DNA of 63,512 nt, filler included. It is 15 parts of 15 records of this genome, joined end to end, with 100 filler letters (N's around TTAATTAATTAA, not from the genome) between each part and the next. Parts side by side here need not be neighbours in the genome. Positions count along the whole stretch, not along the records: positions 1 to 3,215 come from SRR7504441_19601; positions 3,316 to 10,072 come from SRR7504441_19609; positions 10,173 to 13,535 come from SRR7504441_19642; positions 13,636 to 17,596 come from SRR7504441_19647; positions 17,697 to 23,333 come from SRR7504441_19660; positions 23,434 to 30,575 come from SRR7504441_19662; positions 30,676 to 34,048 come from SRR7504441_19663; positions 34,149 to 38,184 come from SRR7504441_19669; 7 more parts are not named here. One strand, 5' to 3'. A program made the position numbers and the translations under genes. The notes under the pieces are model-generated. The model had not been told where the DNA came from, made no database searches, and was given only the letters and a program-made list of their open reading frames with translations. Positions 1 to 58,500 of the stretch are shown here, piece by piece. The first letter of the stretch is position 1, and every line of letters starts with the position of its first letter.

Positions 1-3000
1 CTTGCCTGAAGTGCTGCCCCCTCTGCAGCATATATGATCATTGCGTTCATCGCGTGGGTTCTGGTGCTGATCCAGTCGTGTGTCTACCTTTCGTACACGT
101 TTGTGGTGCATTACTCTGAGCTGAGTAGTCCCCAGCAATGGTACTCTCTCTGCGCTGACGGTCCACTCAGTAGTCTGTGACAGGTGGATTCTGCTGCCAA
201 TTGCGATGGTGCTCCTCTTCTGGACCCGGCCAGGTCTGGTCGCGCTCCAGAATGGGTTTGACACCCCAGCGTTTGTGAGGGACATGGCCTCTGAGCAGAA
301 TTCTGTCGGGGCCAAGGTGTCACAAGCTTGCGTTATCTTCACATACATGTTGTATATGTTGCTTCAACACCGAACTGGATTTCATGTAGTGTATTACGAC
401 CATATGTCGAGTGGCTCTCGCACACGGCAACACTATCACTTCACGTTCTATCTTCCGGTCCTCTTAGTCTGCAGCATATACGCTTTCCTGTGGGGCGCTG
501 CGAACATCTATTGCGATATGGAAATGGCTGCAGCTATATTCGGAGGTATTTACTACATGGTGAAGCACGACGAGCCACTCGACAAAGAATGTGTTGGGTG
601 AGACATCCATACCCTCCCCTGAGCTGTGTCCAGCCAAGTTCTGATTTTTTCGCTTGCCGCAGCTATGTTGTCTCCCTGGACGTCTCTCTCGGTGCCACTT
701 TGCCTTAGCTAGATGGGTCAGGGCTAGGGTTAGGATGTGTCTGAGCTATTGTTTTGTTCTGTCTGCGTACGTGTACACGATTCAAAAGATTACTGCTATT
801 GACCTGCTGGGGGTCAGCAATTATGGTGCTGTTCATCTTATTCAGCCGACTTTTTATGAATGCGTACGAGGTTGAAGTCAAATATCAGCCTGTTGCATGC
901 AGCGAGCAGTCCATATTGAGCCGACTCTATTGCCGCAAAGAGGACACGGTGGCAACTGTGCGGAAGCCTAGCGAGCGAGAACAGCAGATGTTTTCTTACA
1001 ACCTCAATAAGCTACGGTGCCTCGCCTACCTGAGGGAATATCTGGCTTGCCTGCCTGCGGCTGAGTGTCTTAAAAGTGCTTGGTCGACAGGTATTTTACA
1101 CAGGTGCACTGGCTAAATTCAACCATTCGTCTCTTCCTGATGGCCCAAATTTACATATTTCTTGCCGTCATGCTCTTGCCGCAGGATGTGGAGCACCAGG
1201 CTCGATACGTGAATAATCAACCCCCTCCCTCACGGCGTATACTTCAAGTACCTCCCCCGAACAACAACAATCAGCCTGGACGGGCGGAACCAGCGTTCAA
1301 GGCAGTTCCTGATATTGCCACACTCGGCTATAACATCCTGGTCTGTGCTAGTACACTGGTGGTTACTGACGTTCTGACAGTTTACAGTGTGGTTTCTCTG
1401 GGAGAGTTTCTCATTCATGCCAGTGCTAGAGGAAAACGACTCGCAAAGAAAAGGCGCCAGGTTCATGTATGGTGAATTCGAAGCCCCACGGACCCTACAG
1501 GAGCCTGAAGGAAGCGAAGTCGAAGGAAGTCTTTCACCACGCCAAAGTGTGATGCTTTCACCACGCCAAAGTGTGATGTTGGAGGATGACGAACGCCATT
1601 CGATTGGAGTGCAAATGGATGAGGTTTTTATAGAAGATGGCTACCATTTCTACTCTTACAGCATCATGCTAGGCAACGAGGTGCATGCGTTTAGCAAGCG
1701 GTACAGTACATTCAAAGATATAGAGGCACGACTCAGAGCAGCCGGGTTAGACCTGCCATACCTCAAGGAGAAGCAAATCTGGGGCAACGCAGCCGGTGTC
1801 CAGATTCTGAAATGGCTGATCAAGTGTTTGGAGATGGCGCCGATAGCGCTGAGCCCTGCCTTTCAGCAGTCCCTGGGCATGCCAGTTGGGTTGGTCCAGG
1901 CACTCACCCGACTTAGCGAACAGCAGCTCAATCAGGGTGGTCTTGTTGCCAGTCTTGACTCGGATGTATCAGAGACGTTTGACTGTGGGCTGGGCTCGCT
2001 GCCTGTTCATTGGTCTCGCCGGTGGATCTGTAAGCACTTTTCCGGCAAGGCAACTAGTGGCGAGAATGAACTGCCTGGCGGATGGTTTTGTAGTGCTGGC
2101 TACACCATGAAGCTTCAAACAATGATCAAAGCGTTTAGCTTCTCCCGGATGATAGACTTGCACACCGAGGATACAGACATGATGTTCCGAGATAGGATAC
2201 TCAGGTCGCTGCTGAGCTCACCCTGTGGCTGCTGACCAGTCTGTCAGGTATATCCAATTCCTGAAGCAGGAGGTTCCAGAGAGGTTTCACTTGTTCGACT
2301 GTGAAGAGTCTGAGCTGAGTCTGATGTTTGATACATTTGTGAATCCTGTCTCCCAGACAGTTGGGGCAATTTTCAATCTCGAGAAACACCTTGTGGTGTC
2401 GTTCCGCGGCACCAAAGGTTATGAAAATGTAAAATCCGATTTGGCTTTCTGTCAAAAGACCGAAGCAGAGGCCCTGGCTGGAGTAGTCAAGGCAGCAAAT
2501 TTGCATGATGCCCTGGACAAGATGGCTGCTGAGGATTTGCTACGGTCCAGAAATGAGACAGAGCGAGATGCGGCTACACAGAGGATGGCTGCGATGGAGC
2601 AGGATATGAAAGGGATGCAGATTCACAAGGTGGGTAGCGGTGCACTGGTGGCTGTTGACTTTACCTGTGTAGGGATTTCATAGTGCTTTCGAGGCGATTT
2701 GGTATGACAATCCTGATGTTCGCTGGGGATCGCCTCAGCATGCGCACAATTCGTACCAGCAGGGAGTTGGAATGCGAGGCAGACTTTTGGAGTTGATTGA
2801 ACAGACAGGAAAACCACTCATGCTGGTGGGGCATTCTTTGGGTGGGGCGATCGCCTCAATAGCATGCCACGCTATGACATTAGAAGCATACTATTCTCAA
2901 TCCACCAACTCTGCGGTCAACAGGCTGCTAGCACGCAGGGACAATGCTGACGATTCGTTCAAGAAAGATACGCGCCTGTCGTTGTGGACATTTGGGTGTC

Positions 3001-3215: not shown

Positions 3216-3315
3216 NNNNNNNNNNNNNNNNNNNNNNNNNNNNNNNNNNNNNNNNNNNNTTAATTAATTAANNNNNNNNNNNNNNNNNNNNNNNNNNNNN
3301 NNNNNNNNNNNNNNN
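3216..3315. other. Artificial contig linker, first of 14. Others: 10073-10172, 13536-13635, 17597-17696, 23334-23433, 30576-30675, 34049-34148, 38185-38284, 41505-41604, 44800-44899, 47907-48006, 51990-52089, 55416-55515, 59930-60029
   Basis: Identical 100-nt N-run/TTAATTAATTAA/N-run with stops in all six frames; genes are cut at these points. Confidence 0.98.
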
Positions 3316-3972: not shown

Positions 3973-6900
3973 TTAGTATCCTCCGTAACCGCCACCCATA
4001 CCGCCCATACCGCCCATGTTCATTCCACCCGACATCATGTTAACGCCGCCCGCTGCTCCCATGCCAGGCCCCATCAACGCCATTTGACCCATCCCCATGT
4101 CATACCCCATTGTGTTGGTGGGTGCAAGCTGGTTGAGATCTTCGGTCTTATCAGCCATCTTCTCTGTCTTACTCTCCAACTCAATCACCCGGGTTGTGTA
4201 CTCGCGTACAGTTTGCACCATGTATGGCAACGCAAAGTCCATCATCTCATAGCTGCAAACAACATGAGTTCTCTACCTGGGCAGAAAGCAAGCTCACCGA
4301 TACGCCAACTCAAGCACCACATCTGGCAGCAAGTAGTCATACATAGTATAGAGTGAGGCTCCAAAGCAATCATGGCGACCCTGCTCGACAAAGAACCGCA
4401 GCAGATCCTCACAGAGTTCAGTGCTCTGGGACTCAGCAGCAGTTTCCATAGCATCTCGGTACATCCCATCGGCCTTTGAGAGCTCCACCTGTTCCATATA
4501 GTGTGAACACAGAGGAAGAGAAGGCTGTGGGTACCGAGTTGGTGTGCTTGCCCTTCTTCTTGTACACAAAAGCAGCAAGGCGCCTGAACTCCACAAGCTC
4601 GTGCTTCTCGAGCTCCTGGGCCAGTTTTAACAGATCCACGTTGTCGTACGTCTCAACAGACTTGCGGACAGATTCATAATCTCCAGCTGTAACACACAAC
4701 ATCAGTGCATTGTAGGGTTAGGGGTGCAAAGGAGTGTAATTGCGCACCTGCCACGTAGATGTCGTGCAGCGCATCATTCACAGCTTGTAAGTTGTTGTGC
4801 TGCACTGCCTGCAGGTAGTCCTTAATCATTGGCAGATGGCCCTCCTTGATGACCAGCCGTGTCACACGCACATGATCCACCCTGGTGGTGATGGTGCCCA
4901 TGAGGTCGTTGATTTCGGTTGGCACAGTGTCCAGGTAGAACTTGATAGCCTTGTACAAGATCTCCGTGTTGGCAACCTTGGTGATGATGTCCTTGAAGAC
5001 AGCATGCTCAAACGCTTCAGGAGTGTGTTGGATCATGGTCATCACAGCGTTATCAAACTCTTCGTACTTCTGGTACAGCACGCGCAGCTCCAGCCAGTGC
5101 TGGTACTCCTCGCAGGCACGGATGAGCTTGGGGATGTTGATCTTTCCCCCGAAAATCTTGATATGGTTCATCAGTTTCTCATCCTTGAACTTAGCATACA
5201 AGATGCCGAGCTCAGTGTAGATGCCCATGTGGGCACGCTCAAGACCAGTGCCAGCTTCCATCAGCTCAATCAGCTCTTCAAAGTGGCCACCATGCTCATA
5301 CTTGCAGATCAGATCATCCAGCTCGTCTGCATGGACAATGATGTGCAGACCACAGACCTGAGCCAGCCGGAACTCCCCAGCATCGACACAGGCAAAGTTG
5401 ACCTCCTTCCAGGTGCGAGGGGACATGGCTTTCTTGGCAGCATCAACTGCAGCCTGGAATTCGCCGAGCATCACCCGGGCAGACGCGAGCCGGCCATAGT
5501 TGGAGATGTTCAGGAAGAGCAGCTTGGCAGCCTCGTACATGGCGGCATCAAAGCAACGGTCACCAACAACCTGGATCTGGGCAACGTTGGGAGAGTTGAT
5601 CAGCTCCTCGAGCTCACTCAGCTCGTTGTTCTTGGCAAGAGCGAACATGAGTTCGGTGTCAACCACGGGCTCCTTGTTGAGGCCGCCGTCAGTACGAGCC
5701 ATCTTGAGGTAAATCACCAGCTCCTCCCATGCCTCAGCAGCACTGGCCTGCTCGACCATGTTGGTGTAGTCCTGTGCATCCTTGGCCTTGCAGAAGGACT
5801 CCACAGCACCCTTGATGTTCATGGCCTGCATCTGGGCGCGACCAAGACGAGACCAGACATTCGGGTTGTCGATACGCTCAGCGTATTCGTAGGCACGGTC
5901 CAGGTCAGTCATCTGGGTGATGATCACATCAATACACTCTTGGTGCAGACCAAACTTGTTGTAAATGGTGAAAGCTTCCTCATACAGATCAGCACTAATT
6001 GCAATCAGTGCAATGTCCGGAGCATCGTACTTGTCCAAGCGGTTGATGTAGTCCATGACGCGAGTCTTGTCAGCCTTGATTGCAGTGAGAAGGAGAAGGT
6101 TCTGCAGGTTCGGATCCTCAGAGAACACCGAGTTCTGAATTACAATCTTCTCGAGCAGCTCAATCAGCTGCCCAGGCAGATCAGCAGCCATGAATGCACG
6201 TACAGTCTCTGAAACATCATCAGGGTTCTCTGTGGCAGGCAGAGCGGTGGAAATGACTTGATCAATCAGGTTTTGGCGGACAGGGTTCTCTGGGTCAAGC
6301 ACACGTGCCCACAGATCGGAGCTCTGGCGCTCGACCAGGTAGGATGCCTGGTGGCGGAAAAGGTTGTGCTTTGTGGTAACCTCGATCAACTCATCGTCAC
6401 ACTGGCCACGTTTGTAGCAAATGAACGCAAGGTACGGGTCCCGCTTCTCACAGTACACACCCACATCCTGCGAGTTGTAGAAAAGGTTCTCCGCAAGGAA
6501 CTTCTCGGGCTCGTTACCGGTGTCAACGTACACTTTCATCAGACCGTTGTGCACACCCACTTCCTGGTTGCCCTCAGAGATGACAGTCTCCAGCCACGGC
6601 TTGAGGATCTTGAGCCGGTTCCGCTTCTCCACTTCAGCGACGAGTTCTTCGCCATTGCAACGATTCCGGACAGCAGTGATGATCTGCTGGATCACATCCT
6701 CGGAGCAGTCGGCATCCAGCAGAGCTGCAGCAACCTTTGGCGCTGACATCGGGTTCATGTCAGTCACGTAGATCTGGATGAACTTGAGCATGTTGTTGGT
6801 GTACAGGTACTTGACCAACTCCTCAACCATGTCATGCTTGTCGCACACATTGATCAGAGGAAGCTGGTCCTGGAGCCGGGCCTCCATCAAGAAGTCGCGC

Positions 6901-9900
6901 ACTTCAATTGGGTCGTAGGCGCTGCTCTCACGAGTGATGCGCTCCACTTCCTTGATCTGTCCAAGCTTGCAACCAGCCTGGATGTACTTGAAGTGCACAT
7001 CAGCCTCCTGTGAGAAGTTGACAACAGCCTGCAGGTAGTAGAAGAGACCCTGAATGCAGTTGTACTGCTCGAACAGAGGGATGATGTTGGCAGCACCAAG
7101 GGCATCTGAGTACTTGGTTGCAATCTGGACACAGATCTGGGCATTGCCAGATGGGTTGGTTGCGAGCAGAGTCTTGAGGCATTCGAGCCCAAACTCAGCT
7201 GAGAGATTGCCAAAGTAGCCAATGAGCACCTCAGCAGGGATCATGTTGGTGTGGACAATCACTCGCTTCACGTCAGCAAGCTCGGTGTAGTGCTCGAGTG
7301 CGCGCTGGTACAGACCAGCCTGCTCACAGAGCCGGGCGATGTGAGGCCGGTCATAGTGGGAGAACATGTCATTCTCAAAGATAGCGTTGGCCACCTGCAT
7401 AACAGACAAGTGACGTGGGAGCATCACTCAAAGGGGCAGACGGGGATCCATCGAGAGTCAGATAAGGGTCATGTCGTTACAGCACTGCACTTTGTGCCTC
7501 AGATTGGCTGGGGTGACATGGTTTAAGCATCACACCAAGGCACAGAGATGCAGCCGGGTAATCAACACACCTGCGGAGCCATCTGCAGGTTGATCTCGAG
7601 CAGACGAGTCTGGAATGCAGCCTCTTCCGGCCGGTTGTTCTTGAGCACATCCAGCAGGAAAGAAGTTGTCTCTTGGACCAGGTTGCGCGACATGAACAGG
7701 TCGACCACTTGCCCAATGTCCACAAGCGAGCCTCCCTCGTTCTGGGCGAGCTTGAGGGCGAAGTCGAGCGCGCCCTGCTGTGAAATCATGACCATCTGCC
7801 TCAGGAACGTGATGTAGTCTGGCGTGTAGTCGGTCTTCTGAGCGTACAGGATCACCTTATCGTACTGGCCCGACTCCAGGAAGGCCGCCACCACCTATAT
7901 CTGGCTCAGCAGGCACAGCTACCGCGCCGGCGGCACCTTTGAGTGCGACTTGCCCTTGATGTAGATCTTCATGGCCCACTGGTTGTCGCTCGGCCGAATC
8001 ATGTCACCAAGCTCCTCCGAGCCTTCAAGCTTGTCGGCATCCCACCACTTCCGAAGCATGTCCAGCTTGCCCTAAACGCTCCCAGTCAGCAGCTGCAGCT
8101 GGGCCCGGGCCGCACCTGCGCCACTGCGGGCCGGGCGAGTTCGACAGTCTCTAGAGCGTTGAGCTTGCCATGCTCGAGAAGCGTCTGGAAGTACTGCAGG
8201 ATCGGCGAGGCACCGCCCTGAGCCGGCAGGCTCTGGAACTTGCGGATGGTCTCTGCAGTCCGGAGCACACCCATGGGTGACTCGGCAGCACACTGGGCAG
8301 CCTCCTTGAAGCGCTGCTGGCTGAACAGAGCATCAAACTGCAGCACAGCCTCAGGTTCGTGCTAGGCAAGCGATGACACCTGGCGCGAGAAGAGACCCTC
8401 AGCTCCGGGCAGATTGTTGCGCGAAGCAAACTTGACAGCGAGCTCGACATTGTTCAGGGTGTTGCAAATGTGGTTGACAATGTTGGCTTCGTCGATCGCG
8501 ATCTGCAGCACTTGCCCATTCCGGTTCACGCCGATCACGCCGCCGGAGTCGGTGTGGTTTGCGGTGACGAACAGCGCCGACTCGGAGATGCGCGACTGGA
8601 AGATCGGGGTAGCGGTGAGCAGGTCGTAGATGAACACGTAGCCCATCTTGGACAGCATGTAGATGGCAGTGTGCTTCTCAGAGACGGTGATCGAGGTGGG
8701 GAAATCGTTCGGGTCCTCCCACCGGATGGCACCGGCCACGCGCGGGAAGCTCGGGTTCTGGCCGCCCCCAACTTCGACCACTTGCACCTGGCTCTGCCCC
8801 TGCGCGGTCTTCTGTGCGAACGCAACCACAGTGACGGGGTTGGCGGCACCATCCGGCTTGGCCGTGGCGAAAGCAGAGCAGTGGCCCTCGAGCACGTTGG
8901 ACTTGGACCGGTCCTTGGAGTAGAGCTGCATGCAGCCATCCACCGAGCCAGTCGGGCCCTTCTTGATACCGTAGACTGACATCCACTTCTCATCGGGAGA
9001 AATCTGCCAGCACAGGCTCGCCACCGAGCATCGCACGCTGCCACCTTGTAGCCAAGGATGTGCGCACCGCTCAGCTTCTCATCGCGATCAAACACCTTTG
9101 CGGGTTTGCCCTCGCCTTCGATGCCCCAGTGGTACACAGAAGTGTTGGTCACGAGAGCGATCGTGGCCGGGGTTATCCAGCGCCAGAAGACCACCTACAC
9201 AAAGCCCAGCAAGTGAGGCTTTCTGCGCGCATCACCAGCCATCGGGATCCAGCAGTCACACCCAGCAGTTATCAGTTGCTAAGCCTCCCCCCAGTCGCGG
9301 TGGCAGAGTGGCACGAGAGCGCAGACAAGGGAGTCGGGCAAGGGGACCTTGTCGTTGTCGGCAATGGTGTGGTGCTTCATCCGGACCTTGACCTTCAGGT
9401 TGAAGATCTGAAGCACTTGGCCCGAGTTGGTCTCGGCTGCGGCAGCCGGGGGTGAGTCTGGCCCCAAGGTTGCGACGCACCCTTAAGCGCAATGATCTCT
9501 GTCATCGGATTGAGGATGGCTGAGTCTGCGTTGATGCCGTGAGTCTCTGGGGGAGCCGGGTTGGTCAGGTCGACGATCGAGATCTTCACTTGCTTCGAGC
9601 CAGCAGCCTCCTGTCGGACACAAACGTGCTTGTCGGACTCCATCGTGAGCGAGTTCCATGTCATGAAGCTCTGGTCGATGCCGAGCGCCGTCAGCTGCAT
9701 CACACAACGCGCTCGGTCAGATCGGCCCCGCATAAACCAGCTAGAGCGCGCGCTCGCGATCTGCTCGGGTTCGACCGGCAGCGGCTACGCAAGCCCGGCA
9801 CTATGGGAGAATATGATGACGCATCCAGTCACGCTGGATGGCCGGGGGTGGCGAATAAAGGCCCAGATGGGCACCCGGTCCGGTGGGGACGGGGGTGTTA

Positions 9901-9940
9901 CCTGGGCGACCTCGCTGAACTTCACCGGAAGCGAAGCCAT
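3973..9940 (-). CDS. CLTC: Clathrin heavy chain, complete, 11 introns
   Basis: MASLPVKFSEVAQ|LTALGI...TMESDKHVCVR, ADSAILNP, LERAHMGIYTELGILY, MDFALPY. Introns 9901-9695, 9480-9437, 9347-9195, 9044-9004, 8379-8338, 8115-8072, 7936-7895, 7570-7395, 4747-4687, 4534-4489 and 4297-4253 all keep the frame. Confidence 0.98.
7458..7533 (-). ncRNA. Candidate intronic C/D-box snoRNA in clathrin intron 8
   Basis: 76-nt span with C-like GTGATGC, internal CTGA and terminal CTGA about 60 nt before the 3' splice site. CCCCAGCCAA is antisense to LSU rRNA UUGGCUGGGG. C box and terminal stem are imperfect. Confidence 0.3.
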
Positions 9941-34048: not shown

Positions 34049-34148
34049 NNNNNNNNNNNNNNNNNNNNNNNNNNNNNNNNNNNNNNNNNNNNTTAATTAA
34101 TTAANNNNNNNNNNNNNNNNNNNNNNNNNNNNNNNNNNNNNNNNNNNN

Positions 34149-35641: not shown

Positions 35642-37435
35642 ATGAAGCGACTCTTGGGCGTGTCGGTGCTCCTCCTCGGGATGGGGGCAGCGGCGGTGGT
35701 CAGCATGAAAGACCTAGCCAGGGCCAGGACCACAATCCCCCGGCCGGCTTTCAAGGGCGACGGCCAGCTCGGGCTTTCGGTTGTGCTCAACCGGCACCTT
35801 GCCGCCCGCGAGCCGCGGACCACCCCGTGCGACCAGTGGGACCACCACCAGCTCCAGCGCTTCATGTCCGAGATCGCCCCGTTCCGCTCGCCCGAGCTCC
35901 AGGCCGTCTACGGTCCGGCTGCCGACCGACGGGCTCTGGCGCTCGGTTCGATCCAAGAGTTTGAACGGCACTGGGCAGAGATGAACGCGATCGCACAGAG
36001 CCACCCAGACCTGGCCCAGCCGCTGCGCGACACCCACTGCCGGGAGGCCGTGCTCTGGTGGACCCACCACCTGTCGGAGAGCACCCGGGAGCTGCTCCGG
36101 AGCACCCACAACGTCCCGCGGCTCCCCGAGACCGACCAGCCCGGGTGCAACAGCAGCCAGGCGGCCGGCGGACCGGACCGGGCCCGGCTATGCGCCGGGC
36201 TGGAGCAGCCTAACAGCTGCGACTGGTGCCATTCAACTCAGGCGAGCCACGACGCCGGAAAGCCCGGGACTAGCCCTCCAAACGCTCTGAATTATACCAA
36301 CGGACCTGATGACGGGAACCCACACGGTTGGGACCGGCAGCGGCGGTGCGACCAGGACCAGATGCCCCGGTGTCAGCTGTGCGAGGGGGTGGGCGGGATG
36401 GCCTGGGGCGACAAGAATGACCAAATCGCGCTGGTGCCCTGTGAAGTGGTAGCCACGCCAGACAAGGTGGACAACGCAACAGTGCACTGGCCGCTGTACC
36501 CCAAGGCTTTCACTGCCAGTCCGGTCAACGGACGGCCCGGGTACTCGGATACGCTCATCGGCTGGAAAACCGACCCGTTCTGCTTCTCTTTCTTCCCTCA
36601 GAACGATTCGATCCCGCCGCTGTGCTATCGATCGCAGGTGAGATCCGAGCACATTACGCAACTTATCTAGCCTCGTGCAGGATAGCACAGGCAAGTGGTA
36701 TGACTCTAGTCGCGAGGCCACCAGGTCCGACTACAACGTCAAGCTCACCGGGCTGTTCTCGCACTTCCCGAATATCAGCAGCAAGATCATGCAGGTCGGG
36801 TGGCAGATGTGGATCCGGAATCACCTCTGGACAGTCGATCAATGCGTGTGCGCCAATCCATCGGGTGCATGGCGCGATGAGGATGCGCTGACTCGGCGGG
36901 CCAGGCCAGCACTGCACCAAGCCGCCGTGCTACTCATATGTGAGTGTGAGAGCATACCGCGGCTACTCACCGCTGGATGCTGCAGATCTGGCACTGGGAC
37001 ACGTTCAGGTCGGCACAGTACTTGGGCCGAGAGCGGATAGGAGTCGAATGGATCCAGGGCGCCGGCACAGGGAACAACAGCAAGATGTGGACTCTGGACC
37101 ACTTCATCATGTGGTCTCACCATGCCTGGACCGACCCTGAGACAGGCCGGATCGTCCGGATGTGGAAGAGCTTCAATGGACTTCAGAATTACGACCCAGA
37201 AGCATGGACTGACACGGTTGTCGACCCAGATACTGTGTTTGCCAGTCCACCAGCCGAGTGCAAGAAGGGCGGCGCGAGGATAAGGATCCATTGCGATGAT
37301 GATGGCAACTATGATGGCAAGACTGTCGAAGGTGCTGAGCATATTGACTTTTTGGCCCAGACCGCACGCAAACTTGGTGGGCGGCCCACACTCGATGAGA
37401 TCCGAGCACATTACGCGACTTATCTAGCCTCGTGA
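35642..37435 (+). CDS. Secreted Cys/His-rich protein of unknown function; C-terminal half tentatively ependymin/LolA-like; introns 36638-36680, 36865-36904, 36940-36985
   Basis: Signal peptide; RDTHCREAVLWWTHHL; splicing gives CYRSQ|DSTGKWYD...NPSG|QHCTKPPCYSY|IWHWDTF...HYATYLAS*. Confidence 0.8.
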
Positions 37436-37693: not shown

Positions 37694-38184
37694 TTAATCC
37701 AGATTGCTGACTCTGCACGATTCAATTTCTGCGATTGGCACTGTTAGGGGCTGCAGCTTCTCTGGCACCATCCCAGCCTTGACTGGAAGTTCGTACGCCT
37801 TCAACACGCTGACCTGCATAAGTCTCTCTGCGGCGTTCTTCTTGGCATTCCATGCCCATGCCACGTACCGCCATTTGTTGAATCCCTTCACCTAGAGAGC
37901 AAACGCATTAGATTAAGGCCAAATTAATTTGGTTACCAGGTCTCGCAAGCACCAAGACACCAGGGACTGATGCATTGTCCACTCTGCATGCTTGGCCTCA
38001 TTGGTCTGCCAGACACACAACCATCAGTTAAGCTCAGCAGGAGACACGCACTCGTGCAAGCCACGAGTTGTACGCACGGCTCAACGAGTCCTTGAGCCAA
38101 CGGGTCACGGCCCCAGATATCAGGCGCTGCTGGAAGGTCATAGCAGCAGCAGTAAACTGCCACTTCTCCCACGCCATCGACAGC
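37694..38184 (-). CDS. 3' end of a hypothetical gene
   Basis: Spliced ...WCLRDL|VKGFNKWRYVAW...SNLD*. Confidence 0.45.
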
Positions 38185-39251: not shown

Positions 39252-40833
39252 TCAACAGGCCGGCCCACATGCGTGGTGCTTGCAGCACTCGAGGTCATCC
39301 AGGAACATTTGCGCTTCCCTGTATATTAGCTCCGCCTGTTTGATCTTCTCCGGAGCCAAGCCGATGCGACCAGCAATTGCATTTGCAACAATGGCAAAGC
39401 GCTGCCTGAACTTAAATATGAAGCAGAAGACAACGCCCTCGTGCCGCACCTGCACGGCACCACACAGCAGATGTCAGTCATCTGGAAATCGAGCACGGGC
39501 AATCGATCACCTGTGGCCCACAGAGGAACAGCCCTGGCGTGATGGTGGACTCGTCCACCGGAGTCAGCATCGGATCGCTCGTGCCACAGGGCCCGCCGGG
39601 CTTCGTCCACCGAAATAATGACTTTATGATAACCGCCACACTGCCTTGGAACCCATTGGCCAAAATAGGAGGCGTGCTGCAGGTGAGCTCCCACGGTACA
39701 TCCGCCTGCAGTTGGGCAATCTCCTCCAAGGTAGGAGGTGCATCTTTCTTCTTCTCCTTCTTGGCCTTTTTGTCCTTCTTGTTCTTTTTCTCCTTCTTGT
39801 TCTTTTTCTCCTTCTTGGCTTTCTTCTGGCCCTTCTCAGCAACTGCCTCGTCTTGTTCGGAAAACTCATCATGTTCATCGAATTCATCTTGCTCGTCGGG
39901 CTCCGAAACCCCGGCTGCAGCAGCAGCCCCGGCTTGCACGCCAGGCCGACTCTTAGTGCCGTGCGCGGGCCGGGTGTGCACTGTGAACGTCCCGTTCGAG
40001 TCCTGGCTGACTCGATACACGTCACGGTTCCCCGCGAGCCGGATCTTGCCCGGTTTGGACTCGCGGGCCTGACGAAGCCGCTGCCTAGTGTAGGGCGCCA
40101 GTTCTAGGCTCGGATCTGCCAGCCTTTCTGCCCAGCTGGCCCGCCGCCCGATCAGGGTTACTGCTTTGTTATAGGAGAGCAGGTTGACTGTCGCGTCAAC
40201 GCCGCTCTCATACCCGCCAATCACCACAAAATCCTTGCCTGGCACGTCGCCCCATGACTCCACCTCCGAGTTGTGCTGGCAGAGCTCGGCGCCCTCGAAC
40301 GGGCCGTCCGCGGGGTATTGGAATTCCCCGGCAGCCCAGACCACAAACTGGCAGCTGTATACGCCGTCCGAGGTCTCCAGCTCAAACCCGCCGGGGTGCG
40401 GCTCGGAAGCGGCCTTTCTGGACTTGGCGGAGGTCTTGCTCGACTTGGACGGGGAGAGCGGCCGGACCTCGAGCACGGTGACACACAAGGCCACCCGCAT
40501 CTGGCCCTGCTCCACGCAAAACTCTAGGTAGTCGCTATACTCCTGTCCGGACAGGTGCTCCGTATCGAACGGACCGAGCGAGGGCGAAGTGCCGATGACG
40601 CACGAGTTCAGGTCCATCATCCCGTGCGCGTTGTGGTTGAACGACGGCGTGATCAGACGCATCTCAGCCGGCCAGGACACGAAACTCCCTCCGATCCTCT
40701 CGGAGCCCTCCAAGATCAGCACATCCTTGACCCCAAAGTCCTTCAGGGCCTGTGCGGCCCCGATCCCGGACGGACCGGCCCCGACCACGATCACTTGCGC
40801 GTCCCACTGTGCCCCTGAGCTCTTCCGCTTCAT
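39252..40833 (-). CDS. Bacterial-type NAD(P)/FAD oxidoreductase (Pyr_redox_3/COG2072-like) with Cys/His-rich tail; intron 39510-39450
   Basis: VGAGPSG, WPAEMRLITPSF, WAAGEFQYP, VIGGYESGVDA, DESTITPGLFLCGPQ|VRHEGVVFCFIFKFRQRF, MFLDDLECCKHHACGPAC*. Confidence 0.9.
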
Positions 40834-43682: not shown

Positions 43683-44487
43683 TTAGCACTTGTAGCCACG
43701 GCTCTTCCTGCGGCCACGAGCCTTCTCGAACTTGCGGCCCTTGGAGCGCACGTACGGCGCGGCGTGGGTGGTGCCCGGTGCCCCGAAGTGTCTGTTGGCC
43801 TCACGAGCCGAGCGCGGGCCACGGACGAGCACACAGTTGGACCCGGAGGGGAACTGCTGGGCGAGCTGATCAAAGGTCAAGATCTCGCCGCCGTTGGCCA
43901 GGATCCGCTTGCGGGCGGACTCGGTGAAGCGCAGAGCGCACACCTTGAGCCCCTGGGGCACGTCGAGCATCCGGACGTCATCGGTGACGGTCCCCACCAT
44001 GACGCACACCTTGCCATCCTTGCCGGCCATGAGCTTGGCGATCTTGGAGATGGAAATGGGCGGCCGGTTCATCTTGCTCATGAACAGGCGCTTCAGAACC
44101 ACCTTGTTGAAGTTGCACTCCACCCGGCGGGACATGAACCGATATAACTGGAAACCCCCCGCGGCTCGCTCTGGCCCGCGGCTCGCTCTGGCACCTTGAC
44201 CAGAAGCCTGATGTAAGGGTTCTCGCTCTTGGGGGCGGTGCGGCCTCCGTTCTTGACGCGGCCTCCGGCTTTCATGTCGATTCCCTGCGCACGCACGCCG
44301 GTGAGAGGCCATACGCCATACCGAGAGCACAAGCCCGAAGGCGAGGTCCCGCCCCACATCGCACTGCGGGGCAGACTCCGGGGCGGACTGGCAGTACTAG
44401 CCAGCCCGTCGCGCGGAGCTGCCCCGAGGGTGGGGAATGGCAGCCAGCCCATTGCGGGCGGCTTGGCGAGGGCGCGGGGCGCACCAT
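43683..44487 (-). CDS. RPL18: 60S ribosomal protein eL18; introns 44484-44285 and 44194-44148
   Basis: M|GIDMKAGG...[17 protein letters not shown]...[12 protein letters not shown]...[11 protein letters not shown]. Confidence 0.97.
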
Positions 44488-44598: not shown

Positions 44599-44780
44599 AT
44601 GGGCAACTCGTTCGACAAGCAGCAGACGTGCGGGCGGGGCCGGGCCGGCTGACGGTGCGCCAGCAAGGTGCTCCTCAAGCAGTCCACCACCCGGCTCAAG
44701 ATTCTAGCCAACAAGACCTCAAACCTCTCCAAAGGTGCCCGCCGCGAGATCGCCGGCATGCTCGACCGCAAGCAGGCGCC
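44599..44780 (+). CDS. IST1: IST1-like ESCRT-III protein, N-terminus (truncated)
   Basis: MGNSFDKQQT|KVLLKQSTTRLKILANKTSNLSKGARREIAGML. Confidence 0.7.
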
Positions 44781-45279
44781 CCCCCCCCCCCCCCCCCCCN
44801 NNNNNNNNNNNNNNNNNNNNNNNNNNNNNNNNNNNNNNNNNNNTTAATTAATTAANNNNNNNNNNNNNNNNNNNNNNNNNNNNNNNNNNNNNNNNNNNNC
44901 CGGGACGAGGACGTGGAGCCCGGGCACGCTGACGATCTGCTGTCTGATCCGTCAAAGCCTCGTGAGTCTTCTGGCAATGCCGCATAGGCCACATAGGTGC
45001 CCGCACGGAGCCAGGGGGGGCATCCGAAGACCGAAGTTGCCGAGTGAGAGGTCGATACTTAGTCCAGTGCAAAACGTACGTGTTGGGAGTACGGGAATGA
45101 GAGTACGAGTATCATGGAGTATACGAGTAGAGAGCAAAAGCCTACAGTACGTGTACGGTATTATAGTAACATGATCATAAACGCAGATACTCATATAAAC
45201 GGCCGCAGCGAAGCGCTATAGTTCTAAATAAGTCCGGTTCGTTACTATGCCGTACTCGTACCAAGGGTCAAGCGTTGCA

Positions 45280-45953: not shown

Positions 45954-47721
45954 ATGGCCACCGACGAGAAGCAGAGCGATGCGCTGACGTCTTCGCTACC
46001 AACGTCGCTGCCGTCGCCGCAGGCGCTGACAGAGGACCTGGAGCTGATGCGGCTGGAGGGGGGCGAGCCGGCCGGGGAGCCGGCCGAGGCGCCTGCCGGG
46101 TCGGACGACGATGAGCAAGGTTACGAGTCAGATCCGGAGAAGGAGGCCGAACTGATCGTGCTGCTCGAGGGCAAGGTGGCCCGGTACGAGGTGGAGCTCG
46201 GGCTGGGGGCCGAGAAGACGCTCAACAAGGTATTCCAGCTGCTCAACCTGTATATCCAGGTACCCCGCCGGCCCAGGCCGAGGCCCACCCCGGGGGCAGC
46301 ACTACCGGCTGGATGTGATGGACGCCCTGCTGGCACGGGCAGCCGCGCCGGGCCGGCATCGGGCGACGGGCGGGCCAGATAGCCGGCGTGTGCACCGGGC
46401 TGGGTAAGGAGTCGGTATGGTACATCAAGTACATTCAGGCGAGCCGGCAGCCGAACCGGAGGCCAGCCTGGTACAGATGCTCGGCTTCTGCCGCTGGAAG
46501 CAGTACCGGCTCAAGGAGGCGCTCGAGCTATTCCTGGAGCAGGAGACGCTGGTGGGCGACAACTCGATACTCTGTGAGAACATTGGTCACACTTACTCCA
46601 GCATGGGCCAGTACGAGAAGGTGCGAACCAGCGAGCGCCTGATGAGACCTTCCAGGCGTGTGAGACCTTCCAGAAGGGCCTGCGGCTGCTCGGGTCGGAC
46701 GGGGCCCCGGGCCGGCAGGCGGGCTTTCTGTACGGGCTCGCGCTCGCCACCGACAGGCTAGGGAACCCGAATGAGGCTCTGCCTATGCTGTACCAGGCAG
46801 CGAGCCGGCCGGTTTTCAGGCCGAGTGGGGGCAGGCGCTGGACGGTTACAGGAAGGACCGTGTGGACCCGGCCACTGGCCTGCCGGTGGAGAGCTCTATC
46901 CATGCCAAGGTGCTCACAGGCGCTGCTGGGTGGCGCTAGCGATGACAGGTCATGTCCTCGATAGGGCATATGCATGAGAAGACCGGCGACGGGGAGAAGG
47001 CGATAGAGTTCTTTACGGAGGCCGTCCGAGTGTTTCGGAAGACCACGGGGCCTCACATGGTCAGCCCGCTGACGACTACCGCGGTGCGCTCTCCAGAGCG
47101 CCATTTGCTCAAGCCTGTGGCAGATGGGCAACTTGGGCAAGCTGAAACTTCAACGGAACCAGCTGGACGAGGCCCAGCCGCTGCTCAAGGGGGCGCTTGA
47201 GGGCGAGGTTGCCAAGGATTCTTTCCAGGTTGACGACACGTTTACGATGGCCAACCTCGTCAGAGACTTGCACACTCGGCCACCGCTCGACGCTGGCCAG
47301 CCGGTGACGCTTGTGGAGCTGAACGCCACGTTCTCGCAGTACGTCGAGACTCTAGAGAAGGCCGTGGAGCGGTCCGAGCCGTTTATCAAGACCGAGAAGA
47401 GTGGGGATGTGGCTGCTTTGTACAAGACTATAGGAGAGCTGCTGTTGCTTGCTGGTAGCTGGCTGGTGCGGCGACGGAGGCTGAGCGGAGGCAGGTCGGA
47501 AGACGGCGGCCATACAGGTGCTGTCCAAGGCCGTGGCAATCTTCAAGAGCGTCACGGCGGTCGACTGCACCGGGCTGATTGCGGGATGTACACAACTGAT
47601 CACGATTGCGCTCCAGATGTGTGATAAGGAGTCAACCGTGGACGAAGAGGGCCCGGCCTGCTCCTCAAACAGCACCGGACCCGGCGAACCGCCCAGCGCG
47701 CCCAGCCAAGGCCTCGATTGA
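45954..47721 (+). CDS. TPR-repeat protein, 8 introns (3 GC-AG)
   Basis: LCENIGHTYSSMGQYEK, VMSSIGHMHEKTGDGEKAIEFF, MGNLGKLKLQRNQLDEA. Introns 46260-46299, 46339-46378, 46439-46476, 46621-46655, 46797-46834 and three more. Confidence 0.85.
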
Positions 47722-51132: not shown

Positions 51133-52130
51133 CGGCCGGTGTGCACGGCCTGTGTAGACATGTGCCGGTGGCAAAGACAGCGCGTATGCCGCCCCATCCT
51201 GGGGGGGAGCCTCTCACGGAGCTGCGTGACACAGCACTGCTTTGCGTTCAGGCTTGGCTCTTCAAGAGCCGTTGATTCGTTCGTGGCAGACGCGTGGCAG
51301 CTGCTGCTGCAGTGATCGCAGTGATTCGTGACCTCTCTGCAACCGAGACACTGGGCGACCTGCGCGCTCTGCAGGGCGGCTGCGCGCTTGTCGGACACCT
51401 CCACGATATGGTGTTAATTATGGCTTATTATGCTGGCCCGGAAGCGCGGGTGATAAAGCCGATTTATTTAAGACCACGGAGCGCGCCGACGTCTTGGTGC
51501 AGTTCTCGGGTGCACCAAGTTGGAAGACTTCGATGTCACTGCGCTCCGCCTACCCGCAACCGGCGGAGCGGTCAGCAGACCTATCGGTCTTATCAAGTTG
51601 AACACGCCTGAGCTCTGCGAGACCTCAAGCCGTTGATTCGGGCCACTGCAAGTGCTGGACGCCAGGGTGCCACGCGGCACGGTAGCGGGGCTGGGTGATG
51701 GCGACGGTGCGCGCACGGCAGCCCGGCTCGAGGAGCCAGCGGGGTGGGGCGCAGGCCGGGCCGGATGAGCTCCCCGGCGAGCTGCGCGTGTGGTCGGACC
51801 CGACGGCGTTCTGGGGCTGGGGCCAGACCGCCGCCCCGCGTCCCCTCACCCAAGGCCGGCTCGAGGTGGTCGCCCTGCCGCCGGGGCCCAGGCAGCCGGA
51901 CAGATATCCAACTTTGCGCTCCGGCTGGTCCCTAGTGACGACAGCCCGCCGCTGATGGTGCGTCGAGCCCCAGGGGGGGGGGGGGGGGGNNNNNNNNNNN
52001 NNNNNNNNNNNNNNNNNNNNNNNNNNNNNNNNNTTAATTAATTAANNNNNNNNNNNNNNNNNNNNNNNNNNNNNNNNNNNNNNNNNNNNCGAGTGCGAGC
52101 TCCGGCTCCAGACCGACGAAGAAGACCGGC

Positions 52131-52184: not shown

Positions 52185-52196
52185 GGGACCCCCAGC

Positions 52197-55515: not shown

Positions 55516-58500
55516 GCTTGCAGCACGGGCGAGTGGAGCCGGTGAGTCAGCACGTCATGCACACTGGTCACGTCTCGCCACATGGTGAGCTTGTGCTGCC
55601 ACTGGAGCTCAGCGCCGGGGCTTGTGCAGGCCAGGATCTCTTCCATCGACATCCGCGGAGTTGCGAGCCATTCTTCATGCGTCGAGGGGATCCGGAGCTC
55701 GGAGGGGGTCTGCAGCAGGCAAGCCAGTCGGACCTGGCCCTAGGCTCAGGCGCTGGGCGGAGCCCAAGGGCCGACCTGGGACGGAGTCACGCTGAACCGA
55801 CCGTCGGCCAGGCACGCGAAACGCGGGAACAACCGGGCAGTCAAGAAGCAGCGCTCACCGACCTCTGGCCAGATCCGTTCCGGGGAGATCTCGGCGAGGC
55901 TGAGGAACTGGTCGAGGGGTAGGCCATACACCGTCTCGGAAGCTCGGTCGCCCAGTTTGTAACAGACGACCACTGAATGGCCATCGCAGAGCCGAACCTG
56001 CTGGAGCACACCCGAAGGCGGCACCACCACGCTGGTTTGGGTGCTATCAGACGGAAGCGGCGGATCTGGCGCAATATCCGGGAGCAGATCAACGATGGAA
56101 ACCGGATCGGAGTGAAGGTTGTTGCAGATATCGAGCGAGGAGCACAGGCAGCCGGAATGGACCACCAGCGTCACACCTGCGGGCACAAAGCAGTGGTCCA
56201 CCACAGCGCCGCACCCGAGCTGCAGCCACATACTCAGAGCAACAAGCAACGCAGCGCACCTGAGGCACTTCCGCCAGAATGCTGTTGGTGGGCTGGCAGA
56301 CCTCATCCTGAGGGCACAGGCTGCGCACGTACTCTTGGGGCGACTGCAGGTTTGAGTAGGTGCCGTCAGGAGTGACAGCGTGGAGCAGGTTTGGCCCCAA
56401 CCGCGAGAGAGCTTGGCGCAGCTTTGCCCGAACGCTGTCGGGGGCCAGCTCAAGCGACTGAGCTTTGAGCGTGAGCACTTGGACCAGATCGAGCCACAGC
56501 CTGAAGTTGATCGGGACCACGCCGCTGTCCACCCCAAAATAGGTGCACGCGTCCAGCCCGTTCTCGTCCGCATGAAAATCGACCAGCGCGGCCGAAAATA
56601 TTGGGTCCATGAACGCGATCCCGCTCACAGTCGGCAGCCGGGCGCCAGGCTCAAACCCTCCAGCAGCATACAGCTCGTCCAGGGCTAAGCCATACAGCAG
56701 GTCCTGGACGGCCGAGTCACGATTCACTACGAGCACCCCATGTTGAACAGCATACTCGGGATTGCACGGGATTGCCAGAGCGGTAACACCCTTGTGCGTC
56801 CAGCTCCCGGGCTGACACAGCGCCGTCATGTCATGCACCACTGTGTGGGACTCTGAGCTGCACACCCACACGCCACACGGGGCCGCCCGGGCCAGCTCGG
56901 CCATCTGGTTGAGCAGCACGTCCATGTTGGACACTGGCAGCCCAGCCACTGCCGACACCGCGTGCGATGGAGCGGTGGCAAAGGCCCGACCGTGCCAGCT
57001 GTACGGAGTGCTCTTGTTCCGCATGTTCTGAGTAGGCCCTAGGTGAATGATCAGCACGTGCGCGCGCTGCAGAAGCTCAGTGTCGATGAACCGCTGGCCA
57101 TTCGCCGCCGACAGCCGCTCGGTAATTACCACAAGAGCATTCACAGTGGCTCCGCCCGAGCCGACTCTGGCACCGCCAGGGTCTGGCACCGGCACCACGA
57201 TTGTCTGCTTAGGCACGGCTGTCCTCATCTGCAGCTCATCGCAATAGGTCTGGGCACGAGCTAAGTCGTGCTCAGCGCACGTCACCTGCCGCCATGCTGA
57301 GCCGCGCTTCACTGCCAGCCTACCGCGATCGCAGTCCACGGTGCTGGCAAGCTCGGTTCTGGCTCCGGGGCTGAGATGGCCTCGGCGAGATGGGTTCTCC
57401 AGCAAGCCTGAGCCTCCAGATCGGCAGCGGCGACGGTCTGTTTGAGCGACAGTCGGGAGCCCTGCAACGGGCTCACTGGCTGGGTGGGCGGGCAGGGAGC
57501 CTGGGCCGTGTGCTGCCACAATGCGAGCGAGGAGCGCTGCCCAAGCACGAGCCTCATGATCACCACAGCCGCCGAGGTGCTCCCCTCGCGGGTGGGCATC
57601 ACCGGCCAGAGCTCAGCTGTCCACAGCGAGCGGCCCGCCCCGGGTTGGCCAGGCCAGACGGCCTCAGGCTTCAGCTCCAGCCGGCTGAGCGCTGTAGCTA
57701 CTGGCACCCCGAGCAGCGTGCCATGCTCGAGCTCGGCCTGCCCAATCCTCAGACCGGCCCGGCGGCGGACCGACCTTGGTGTTGTCGGTGGTGCGCATGA
57801 TGTGGGTGACGAATCCGGTCTGGCCGGCCTGACTAACTGGGAGGGTCTGCATGAAGCAGTTATCAGGCAGCTCGACAGGACCGTCAATCTGAGCGTCGGT
57901 CAATAGGCACCCGCTCCCGAGTTTGGCTCCTCCTTTAAGCCAGCAGTGCTCCAGCACGCACCCGGGTGGCACCGCAGCCCCGTCCACTACAGAGTTGATC
58001 ACACAGCTGCCCTCGGCGCCCTGCACGGAGCTCTTGAAATGCCTGAGCCTGGGTGGCGCCAGCTCTCCCAGCTCGCTCGCCAGGTGCTCAACGTACTCGC
58101 GCATAGTCCCGATGTGCACAAAGCTGCCCGGCTCGAGCACGGCGCAGTTGAGCTGTAGATCAGCCAGCCCTGCGGCCAGCCTGGCCCTGACTTGCCACAG
58201 CTCCTCCGGCCCGTCTGCCTTTATGTATTCGTCGGTAGCCTGCCGGCCGAGCGGATGCAGGAAGTCGCCGTACGCATCCACCTCGTGCCGGAGCACTCGC
58301 TCCCGGTCGGCTCGGAACAGCCCGAGCAACCTGACCGCTGTGCTCCTGTCAAACATGAAGTCGCTATCCGTGAGCACTTGCTCCTCCCCCGGGCCAGCCA
58401 GCACCGCCCCGGCCGCACGCATCAGCGCCAGCGGCGGTTTCTCCAGGTATCGCGCCGCGGTGCAGGTGCACGGTGGCCGCAGTTCGCCGGGCTCCAGAAC

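What the first reader, a model, noticed from the sequence alone, without database searches (positions are those of the whole stretch)
141..57323. Candidate system: 35-50 nt introns assembled from locally templated DNA rather than Introners
Seen: most of the ~80 hand-inferred introns are 35-50 nt and do not form one sequence family. Many instead resemble nearby DNA: a distant direct copy (36638), adjacent direct copies (141, 26097, 32216, 46621), fold-back copies (9480, 35090, 36865, 36940, 54955), internal tandem duplications (28360, 39510, 44194) and cores shared with a neighbouring intron (21145/21249). Junction repeats are common (GCAG|GTG at 7570, CAG|GTG at 39510, TCAG|GT at 2205). Known: direct plus inverted flank-templated inserts are the signature of polymerase-theta-type end joining. 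Inference: a tolerant short-intron spliceosome turns repair scars into introns genome-wide. Caveat: short matches in GC-rich DNA arise by chance, and splice consensus alone produces AG|G repeats.
Basis: partly seen in the sequence, partly recalled or inferred. Interest (0 to 1): 0.85.

Follow-up and report, generated by a model that had tools for sequence, protein, structure and literature searches.

The report
Tiny introns; one copied from its gene
An uncultured marine protist has introns only about 41 bases long; nearly all of their claimed resemblances to nearby DNA are chance, but one intron is a near-perfect recent copy of the end of its own gene.

Summary
The window is not one locus. It is 15 unlinked contigs of 3.0-7.1 kb joined by N44-TTAATTAATTAA-N44 spacers, from an unnamed marine eukaryote.

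The short introns are real. My set has 77 introns, median 41 nt, 66 of 77 within 35-50 nt, and no sequence family.

The central claim, that many introns resemble nearby DNA, fails its own proposed test:
- Intron-to-flank similarity equals that of random exon pieces.
- Exact-match counts equal non-host expectation.
- Junction repeats are 2.78 observed against 2.77 expected, p = 0.50.
- There is no hairpin excess.
- Only 3 of the 17 listed sites stand out.

One of those three is striking. Intron 36638-36680 is a 38/39 copy of the last 12 codons plus part of the stop codon of its own gene, 758 nt downstream. It is flanked by a duplicated CAGG that supplies both splice sites.

Intron 46621 carries a 13-nt copy of exon sequence 5 nt away. 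Intron 44194 holds a perfect 17-nt tandem duplication.

Verdict: local copying is an occasional, recent source of introns here. It is not a shown genome-wide system, and it fits known models of intron gain by break repair.

The parts
36638..36680 (+). 43-nt intron of gene g17. Positions 2-40 (36639-36677) are a copy of the gene's own 3' coding end. Ends are GTGAG...TGCAG.
   Evidence: Predicted blind by the gene finder. 38/39 identity to 37396-37434, E = 2e-15. One of only 2 repeats in a self-BLAST of the whole window. Retaining it shifts the frame into a stop. Homologue mRNAs run straight across the site. A polyA-RNA contig of a diverged relative lacks these 43 nt.
37396..37434 (+). Source copy: the last 12 codons of g17 plus the first two bases of its stop codon, 758 nt downstream of the intron on the same strand.
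   Evidence: This C-terminus aligns with the C-terminus of homologue L001, so this copy is the ancestral coding one. RNA contigs run through it unspliced (records 11 and 29).
36635..36638 (+). Left copy of the 4-nt target duplication CAGG: the last 3 exon bases plus the G of the GT donor.
   Evidence: Read from the sequence. The inserted 43 nt are the 39-nt copy plus CAGG.
36678..36681 (+). Right copy of CAGG: the CAG acceptor plus the first base of the next exon.
   Evidence: Read from the sequence.
46621..46655 (+). 35-nt intron of the TPR gene g26. Its last 13 nt (46643-46655) repeat exactly at 46661-46673 in the next exon.
   Evidence: A match of 13 nt or more is expected 0.043 times per 77 introns. 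The exon copy is coding and conserved: the junction is continuous against homologue P0121.
44148..44194 (-). 47-nt intron 2 of the ribosomal protein L18e gene, holding a perfect 17-nt tandem duplication.
   Evidence: Internal-repeat score 18, shuffle p = 0.003-0.01.
36865..36904 (+). 40-nt intron upstream of a 35-nt micro-exon (36905-36939) in g17.
   Evidence: The two-intron model aligns without a gap to homologue mRNAs L001-L003 and beats my 86-nt GC-AG model, score 1971 against 1904.
36940..36985 (+). 46-nt intron downstream of the micro-exon.
   Evidence: A loose end of an X5 RNA contig after 36932 continues into the next exon. Homologue alignment agrees.
37892..37936 (-). 45-nt intron of a minus-strand gene that the gene finder missed.
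   Evidence: RNA contigs of two studies (X3, X4) join 37889 to 37935, with ends CT..AC when the cut is read 2 places further right.
3973..9940 (-). Clathrin heavy chain gene with 11 introns: 9695-9901, 9437-9480, 9195-9347, 9004-9044, 8338-8379, 8072-8115, 7895-7936, 7395-7570, 4687-4747, 4489-4534 and 4253-4297. Used to measure the accuracy of the intron set.
   Evidence: The spliced model equals P0001, a 1683-aa protein named 'clathrin heavy chain' by JGI and 100% identical to the 882-aa exon searched. Two places needed correction. Of 9 gene-finder introns in this gene, 8 were exact and 1 had a wrong donor. Two long introns were missed.
3216..3315 (.). The first of 14 artificial linkers (N44-TTAATTAATTAA-N44) that join 15 separate contigs.

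Best explanation
The window samples 15 small contigs of an intron-rich, GC-rich, uncultured marine eukaryote. Its spliceosome works on introns of about 41 nt, with the consensus GTGCG ... CTGAG/CTGAC ... GCAG, about 18% GC donors, and a preference for CAG|G sites and phase 0.

For the great majority of these introns no source can be seen. Their short matches to flanks, their hairpins and their junction repeats are what base composition and splice consensus give by chance.

There is one clear exception, a recent intron gain. A 39-nt piece of the 3' coding end of gene g17 was copied and inserted 758 nt upstream in the same gene, at a CAG|G site, with duplication of the 4-nt target CAGG. The left duplicate provides the G of a GTGAG donor. 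The right duplicate provides the CAG acceptor. The 43-nt insert falls in the modal intron length class and can be spliced out.

Shown: the copy, its direction (exon to intron), the duplication, and the frame disruption if it is retained.

Inferred: that a staggered double-strand break was repaired with a captured or copied fragment, and that this organism splices the insert.

Intron 46621 probably records a similar but smaller event, with 13 nt copied from 5 nt away. Intron 44194 records a later internal duplication.
For: Intron set and its accuracy.

Bulk null result:
- The direct host excess, T = 0.47-0.51, is no larger than for random exon pieces at 0.58-0.67. Of 20 replicates, 12-15 reach the real value.
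- Exact-match counts equal the non-host expectation.
- Dinucleotide shuffles give only Z = 1.6-2.2, with 2-7 of 71 introns at p <= 0.05.
- Junction repeats are 2.78 against 2.77.
- Folding z is -0.06 to -0.10.
- Junction-spanning repeats reach p <= 0.05 in 5 of 73 (direct) and 3 of 73 (inverted), against 3.7 expected.
- There is no intron family.

The 36638 case:
- 38/39 identity, E = 2e-15.
- It is one of only 2 repeats in the window-wide self-BLAST. The other is a coding tandem repeat.
- Its own-contig score is 37, against 13 for the best other contig.
- Homologue mRNAs are continuous across the insertion site and share the C-terminal motif.
- The gene finder called it an intron before the copy was known.

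Introns evolve fast here. A DNA relative (X2) has 3 changes in the 40-nt intron 35051-35090 and none listed in the 124 exon bases covered by the same contig. Old sources would therefore be erased.
Against: - There is no RNA from this organism itself across 36638. The one joined RNA contig (X5) comes from a relative. It has 4 other letters in the 132 nt upstream of the joint and differs in the first bases after it. That relative may simply lack the insert.
- No DNA contig of a relative covers the site, so presence/absence polymorphism was not seen.
- CAG|G is also the splice consensus, so the 4-nt duplication alone is weak evidence.
- A small inverted host excess exists: T = 0.22-0.32, and only 1-2 of 20 exon-piece replicates reach it. 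A weak tail of own-contig matches also exists: 4 at score 18 or more against 0.93 expected, or 3 without 36638. Both leave room for a few more old local copies.
- About 1 in 10 of my short introns may be mis-called (1 of 9 in clathrin).
- Only 62 kb were available.
Confidence: 0.75

Rival explanations
1. Most 35-50-nt introns of this organism are scars of polymerase-theta-type end joining, built from direct and inverted copies of flanking DNA and tolerated by a permissive short-intron spliceosome. Older ones have merely diverged.
For: Two introns do carry local copies: 36638 and 46621. The 46621 template lies 5 nt from the junction, as recalled for theta-type inserts. There is a small inverted-match excess over exon pieces and a weak tail of own-contig matches. 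Fast intron divergence would hide old events.
Against: There is no excess of local matches for the bulk by any of six tests. There is no decay with distance: the excess is nil at 150-300 nt and comes back weakly at 300-600 nt. The 36638 insert has a target duplication, a template about 0.7 kb away, and no visible microhomology at the template borders. POLQ presence could not be tested. The fold-back arm claimed at 35090 is broken by 2 substitutions in a DNA relative.
Confidence: 0.12
2. The 36638 insert is not a functioning intron. It is either an artefact of assembly or whole-genome amplification, or a real but unspliced insertion that disables this allele of g17.
For: No RNA or independent DNA of the same strain covers the site. 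The window comes from short metagenome or single-cell-type contigs, two of which end in homopolymer runs.
Against: The insert is in direct orientation, has exact 4-nt flanking duplicates, gains canonical GTGAG and TGCAG ends and a length of 43 nt, and restores the frame exactly when removed. This is not the pattern I recall for amplification chimeras, which are mostly inverted junctions. Its one mismatch to the source implies time since copying.
Confidence: 0.1
3. The 39-nt unit belongs to a mobile Introner-like family with more copies elsewhere in the genome.
For: A 4-bp target duplication that supplies splice sites is what some Introner families do (PMC9860276, passages read). Aquatic protists are enriched for Introners (same paper).
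Against: The only other copy is conserved coding sequence at the gene's own C-terminus. No third copy exists in 62 kb. There is no family among the 77 introns. The unit is far shorter than what I recall for described Introners.
Confidence: 0.04

Closest known systems
Neo-introns of Daphnia pulex formed by repair of staggered double-strand breaks (Li et al. 2014, PMC4202315; passages read)
   Same: An insertion at an exon site flanked by a short direct repeat of the terminal exon bases (4-12 bp there, 4 bp here). The insert becomes a spliceosomal intron. Internal direct repeats occur in some introns (44194 here).
   Different: In Daphnia the source of most neo-introns is unknown, or is mitochondrial or rDNA. 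Here the source is the same gene's 3' coding end. Presence/absence polymorphism, the Daphnia criterion, could not be tested. There is no general excess of internal repeats: 6 of 76 at p <= 0.05.
NHEJ capture model of intron gain (Farlow, Meduri and Schloetterer 2011, PMC3020277; passages read)
   Same: [quoted passage not shown]
   Different: That is a general model. It names no intragenic templates and no organisms with ultra-short introns.
Introners, intron-generating transposons (Gozashti et al. 2022, PMC9860276; passages read)
   Same: Some families make 4-bp target duplications and take one or both splice sites from the insertion site. They are common in aquatic protists.
   Different: Introners are multi-copy families. 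Here there is no family, and the single donor is ordinary coding sequence.
Polymerase-theta templated insertions (Schimmel et al. 2019; seen only as a reference-list entry, content recalled)
   Same: Short inserts copied from DNA close to the break, in direct or inverted orientation. The 46621 repeat, 5 nt away, looks like this.
   Different: For 36638 the template is about 0.7 kb away, the target is duplicated and not deleted, and no microhomology is visible. My searches found no paper that links theta-type inserts to intron gain.

Membership tests
Double-strand-break-repair neo-intron (Daphnia type) | [quoted passage not shown] | tested here: met
   CAGG at 36635-36638 and at 36678-36681. 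Caveat: CAG|G is also the splice consensus, and junction repeats overall are at chance.
Double-strand-break-repair neo-intron (Daphnia type) | The intron is absent at the same site in other alleles or close relatives (a recent gain) | tested here: inconclusive
   Homologues were available only as mRNA. The relative's RNA lacks the 43 nt, but that could be splicing. No DNA contig covers the site. One mismatch in 39 to the source argues for a recent event.
Double-strand-break-repair neo-intron (Daphnia type) | The inserted sequence is foreign to the site and has an identifiable donor | tested here: met
   The donor is 37396-37434 at 38/39 identity. The donor is ancestral coding sequence.
Polymerase-theta (TMEJ) templated insertion | The template lies close to the break, within tens of bases | tested here: inconclusive
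   Met for 46621, where the template is 5 nt away. Not met for 36638, where it is 716-758 nt away. The criterion itself is recalled.
Polymerase-theta (TMEJ) templated insertion | Microhomology between the break ends and the template borders, and usually loss rather than duplication of target bases | tested here: not met
   For 36638 the bases next to the two copies differ on both sides and the target is duplicated (read by eye).
Polymerase-theta (TMEJ) templated insertion | The organism encodes POLQ | not testable with these tools
   No genome is held for this window. None of the 34 predicted proteins looked like a polymerase or a Ku/ligase (my reading; no family scan was run).
Introner family | Many introns share one sequence | tested here: not met
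   All-against-all comparison of intron interiors: the maximum score is 14, equal to shuffled. No third copy of the 36638 unit exists in the window.
Intron gain by tandem duplication of an AGGT-containing exon piece | The intron end and the adjacent exon are in-register duplicates, so junction repeats exceed the consensus expectation | tested here: not met
   Observed 2.78 against a null of 2.77, p = 0.50. Repeats of 6 nt or more: 4 against 3.8. Only 46621 shows an out-of-register 13-nt repeat.

The most novel reading that the evidence does not exclude
This lineage is in an active phase of intron gain. Inserts of about 40 nt, copied from the same gene or nearby DNA, land at CAG|G sites with a 4-nt duplication. 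Because the spliceosome accepts any roughly 40-nt GT...AG unit, they are spliced at once. On this reading 36638 is the youngest visible member of a process that built much of the intron load, and older members have lost their resemblance through fast intron divergence.
Probability: 0.15. Interest if true: 0.8.

Novelty: new member of a known kind. Interest (0 to 1): 0.5.

Why it matters
Where new spliceosomal introns come from is a long-standing question. In the best-studied case, Daphnia, the source of most new introns is unknown (PMC4202315).

Here the donor, the target duplication and the birth of both splice sites can all be read directly for one intron, in an organism whose introns sit near the minimum workable length. 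That gives a concrete and testable example: look for presence/absence across populations and for more such copies genome-wide.

The negative result matters as well. Short matches, hairpins and AG|G junction repeats picked out by eye in GC-rich DNA were at chance level. They should not be taken as repair signatures without the controls used here.

Tried and rejected
- Whole genome: none is held. POLQ/Ku/LIG4 and genome-wide intron tests were therefore impossible.
I then laid one contig only, and RNA cover there was sparse. Nothing crossed the g16 introns, and the joint 36815 to 36910 (side 23) was too weak to use.
I dropped that route and compared models with fetched homologues inside scripts instead.
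- My first re-estimation of the gene finder ran away to hundreds of false introns. I fixed it by neutralising the invariant GT/AG columns.
- Two gene-finder introns were wrong: the 86-nt 36900-36985 and the 90-nt 9195-9284. I replaced them.
- The metagenome scan for g17 relatives returned only intron-free contigs that look like mRNA. It gave no test of intron-position conservation. L036, which looked possibly genomic, is continuous mRNA too.
- Own-contig matches of 17-19 for 41965, 18911, 52573 and 44148 are GC-rich and imperfect and lie 1.2-3.5 kb away. I did not accept them individually.
- Taxon: the nearest named clathrin is at 60% identity or less, Rfam found nothing, and two literature searches gave no match to a lineage with 41-nt GC-rich introns.
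- A weak tail excess and a small inverted excess are reported but not interpreted.


Full report
WHAT THE WINDOW IS

The 63,512 bases are not one locus. Fourteen identical linkers (44 N, TTAATTAATTAA, 44 N) join 15 contigs of 3,007-7,142 bases, with GC content from 0.51 to 0.66. No whole genome is held.

The stretch 30001-40000 is found only in marine, seawater and aquatic metagenomes and metatranscriptomes, at small shares. A clathrin heavy chain exon has a 100%-identical, 1683-aa mRNA-derived protein in a JGI data set. The nearest named homologues reach only 55-60% identity. So this is an uncultured marine eukaryote that I could not name. 'Nearby DNA' can only mean within a 3-7 kb contig, and 'genome-wide' claims rest on 62 kb.

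THE INTRON SET

I wrote a small generalised hidden-Markov gene finder, self-trained on the window. It converged on 34 genes, 41.4 kb of coding sequence and 69 introns with a median of 40 nt.

Independent checks on its accuracy:
- In clathrin, the spliced model equals the 100%-identical protein P0001 except at two places. Of 9 predicted introns, 8 were exact. One had a wrong donor: the true intron is 9195-9347, 153 nt. Two long introns had been missed: 7395-7570 (176 nt) and 9695-9901 (207 nt).
- In the TPR gene g26, 7 of 8 junctions are gap-free against homologue P0121, including two GC-AG introns. The eighth shows a 2-residue gap.
- In the fucokinase-like g31, the four junctions that fall within the alignment to P0123 are gap-free.
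My 86-nt intron was wrong.
- RNA contigs of two studies add a minus-strand intron at 37892-37936.
- Reading the sequence added two introns of the L18e gene, one of g19 and one at 141.

The final set has 77 introns. The median is 41 nt, 66 of 77 fall within 35-50 nt, 4 are above 100 nt and 14 have GC donors. Of the 77, 41 follow AG and 45 precede G. Of the 69 gene-finder introns, 43 are in phase 0. All 17 sites listed in the finding are introns of this set.

NO FAMILY

Comparing intron interiors all against all gives a maximum local score of 14. The number of pairs at 13 or more is 8, against a mean of 4.8 for dinucleotide-shuffled introns (range 1-8). The modest excess at 10-12 fits the shared branch-site motif. 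The 10-mer shared by 21145 and 21249 is unremarkable: 138 of the 2850 pairs score 10 or more.

DO INTRONS RESEMBLE THEIR SURROUNDINGS?

I ran the test the finding asked for, with splice signals masked (first 6 and last 4 nt) and also unmasked, on both strands.

(a) Host against non-host flanks. Each intron was aligned to its own flanks and to the flanks of introns on other contigs. Scores were centred two ways and tested by permutation.
- Direct matches show a small host excess: T = 0.47-0.57 score units, p = 0.001-0.003.
- The number of introns at rank p <= 0.05 is 3-4 of 77, against 3.9 expected.
- Random exon pieces of the same lengths from the same contigs give T = 0.58 +/- 0.27 at W = 60 and 0.67 +/- 0.24 at W = 150. 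Of 20 replicates, 12 and 15 reach the real value.
- The excess is therefore ordinary local self-similarity and is not a property of introns.
- Inverted matches give T = 0.22-0.32, against 0.07 +/- 0.14 for exon pieces, and 1-2 of 20 replicates reach it. This is a marginal effect of about a quarter of one matched base.

(b) Distance. The excess is absent at 150-300 nt and weakly back at 300-600 nt, so there is no decay.

(c) Dinucleotide shuffles. The summed Z is 1.6-2.2 within 150 nt and 0.1-1.1 at 400 nt. Between 2 and 7 of 71 introns reach p <= 0.05.

(d) Longest exact matches within +/-150 nt, whole introns.
- 10 nt or more: 2 direct against 2.0 expected, and 3 inverted against 2.0.
- 12 nt or more: 1 against 0.20.
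- 13 nt or more: 1 against 0.043.

(e) Junction repeats. I measured how far the intron borders can slide. The observed mean is 2.78 nt. When each donor side is paired with acceptor sides of other contigs, the mean is 2.77 +/- 0.14 (p = 0.50). Repeats of 6 nt or more number 4 against 3.8. The examples GCAG|GTG, CAG|GTG and TCAG|GT exist but are what the consensus gives.

(f) Fold-back. Introns with or without 15-nt flanks fold no better than shuffles: mean z is -0.06 and -0.10, and 3 of 73 reach p <= 0.05. Exon pieces give -0.09.

(g) Repeats that span the junction, in exon 30 nt + intron + exon 30 nt. Direct repeats reach p <= 0.05 in 5 of 73 and inverted in 3 of 73, against 3.7 expected.

(h) Whole own contig against the other contigs. 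The own contig holds the strictly best match for 4 of 77 introns, against 5.7 expected from length. In the tail, scores of 18 or more occur 4 times against 0.93 expected. One of these is 36638. The others are imperfect GC-rich matches 1.2-3.5 kb away.

Site by site, 14 of the 17 listed sites are unremarkable.

THE EXCEPTIONS

(1) Intron 36638-36680.
- Positions 2-40 match 37396-37434 at 38 of 39 bases, on the same strand (E = 2e-15).
- A self-BLAST of the whole window finds only two repeats. This is one. The other is a coding tandem repeat in g10.
- The downstream copy encodes the last 12 residues of g17 and runs into its stop codon. That C-terminus aligns with the C-terminus of homologue L001. 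The downstream copy is therefore ancestral and the intron is the derived copy.
- Homologue mRNAs read straight across the insertion site.
- The sequence reads exon...CAG | G + 39-nt copy + CAG | G...exon, that is, CAGG-copy-CAGG. The insert is the copy plus a 4-nt target duplication. The left duplicate completes a GTGAG donor and the right one is the CAG acceptor.
- Retaining the 43 nt shifts the frame into a stop.
- The gene finder had called it an intron before I knew of the copy.
- A polyA-RNA contig (X5) from a diverged relative lacks exactly these 43 nt. Because it is a relative, that could be splicing or absence.
- No DNA contig of a relative covers the site.
- In the one DNA relative laid (X2), other introns of the contig are kept. 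One of them (35051-35090) has 3 substitutions, while none is listed in the 124 exon bases covered by the same contig. Two of the three break the claimed fold-back at 35090. Introns thus diverge fast, and one mismatch in 39 marks 36638 as young.

(2) Intron 46621-46655. Its last 13 nt recur exactly 5 nt into the next exon. There they are coding and conserved against P0121. The expectation is 0.043 per 77 introns.

(3) Intron 44148-44194. This is a perfect 17-nt tandem duplication inside a 47-nt intron of the L18e gene. Without the duplication the intron would be 30 nt.

(4) 54955 and 19813. These are inverted matches at p = 0.01-0.06, which is about what 73-77 tests should yield.

MECHANISM

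For 36638 the anatomy is that of a staggered double-strand break at a CAG|G site, repaired with fill-in of a 4-nt overhang and insertion of a fragment copied from 0.7 kb downstream in the same gene. Copy, direction and duplication are shown. The break and the repair pathway are inferred.

I see no microhomology between the bases beside the two copies. The target is duplicated rather than trimmed. So nothing points specifically to polymerase theta. An RNA-derived fragment of the gene's own message cannot be excluded.

For 46621, a copy of sequence 5 nt from the junction does look like a locally templated repair insert.

Because the modal intron is about 41 nt, and CAG|G duplication supplies both splice sites, such inserts can become introns at once in this organism. 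That step is inferred.

COMPARISON WITH WHAT IS KNOWN

- Intron gain by repair of staggered breaks, with 4-12-bp repeats of terminal exon bases at the far end of the new intron, is described for Daphnia. There the source of most new introns remains unknown (PMC4202315, passages).
- The NHEJ capture model generalises this (PMC3020277, passages).
- Introner transposons of aquatic protists can take splice sites from 4-bp target duplications (PMC9860276, passages). They are multi-copy families, which is not the case here.
- My searches for 'templated insertion' / 'polymerase theta' / 'intron gain' returned no paper that links the two. One fungal paper invokes microhomology-mediated deletion inside stwintrons. 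One review only cites an intron paper in its reference list.

VERDICT

The interpretation as a genome-wide templated-repair system is not supported by these data. It survives as a minority possibility, because fast intron divergence would erase old sources.

What is really there is an ultra-short-intron genome with one clean, recent, intragenic intron birth and one or two smaller local-copy events. This is a new member of a known kind. Interest is moderate at 0.5. It would be high only if the full genome shows many such cases.

Noticed in passing
window 3216-3315 and 13 further sites (10073, 13536, 17597, 23334, 30576, 34049, 38185, 41505, 44800, 47907, 51990, 55416, 59930): The window is 15 separate contigs joined by N44-TTAATTAATTAA-N44 linkers. 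GC content ranges from 0.51 (contig 1) to 0.66, so a mixed origin cannot be excluded.
   Followed up: yes
introns at 31951-31987, 46439-46476, 46797-46834 and 11 others: 14 of 77 introns have GC-AG ends. Two (46439, 46797) sit at gap-free junctions against a homologue. That is an unusually high share of GC donors.
   Followed up: partly
window 36905-36939: A 35-nt micro-exon between two 40-46-nt introns in g17, confirmed by homologue mRNAs.
   Followed up: yes
window 37158-38002: An RNA contig carrying a minus-strand splice (37892-37936) runs on through 37158-37889. It overlaps the last exon and stop codon of the plus-strand gene g17, including the donor copy at 37396-37434. The two genes are convergent with overlapping 3' ends.
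   Followed up: no
window 35642-37435 (g17) and loci L001-L039: g17 belongs to a family of cysteine-rich proteins of about 550 aa with a hydrophobic N-terminus. The scan returned 39 related contigs from JGI marine data at 39-80% identity, most of them apparently mRNA. Many end in the residues I-V-V. The function is unknown to me.
   Followed up: no
window 44780-44799 and 51970-51989: Two contigs end in runs of C or G of about 17-20 bases. These are probably sequencing or assembly artefacts at contig ends.
   Followed up: no
window 20410-20568 and 1537-1590: Coding tandem repeats: a 108-nt period in the coiled-coil gene g10 (88% identity), and a 24-nt unit repeated twice in contig 1 (read).
   Followed up: no
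window 45954-47721 (g26): The first 7 of the 8 introns of this TPR gene are in phase 0. Overall, 43 of the 69 gene-finder introns are in phase 0.
   Followed up: partly
window 30676-30695: Contig 7 starts with a (GTGA)n microsatellite.
   Followed up: no
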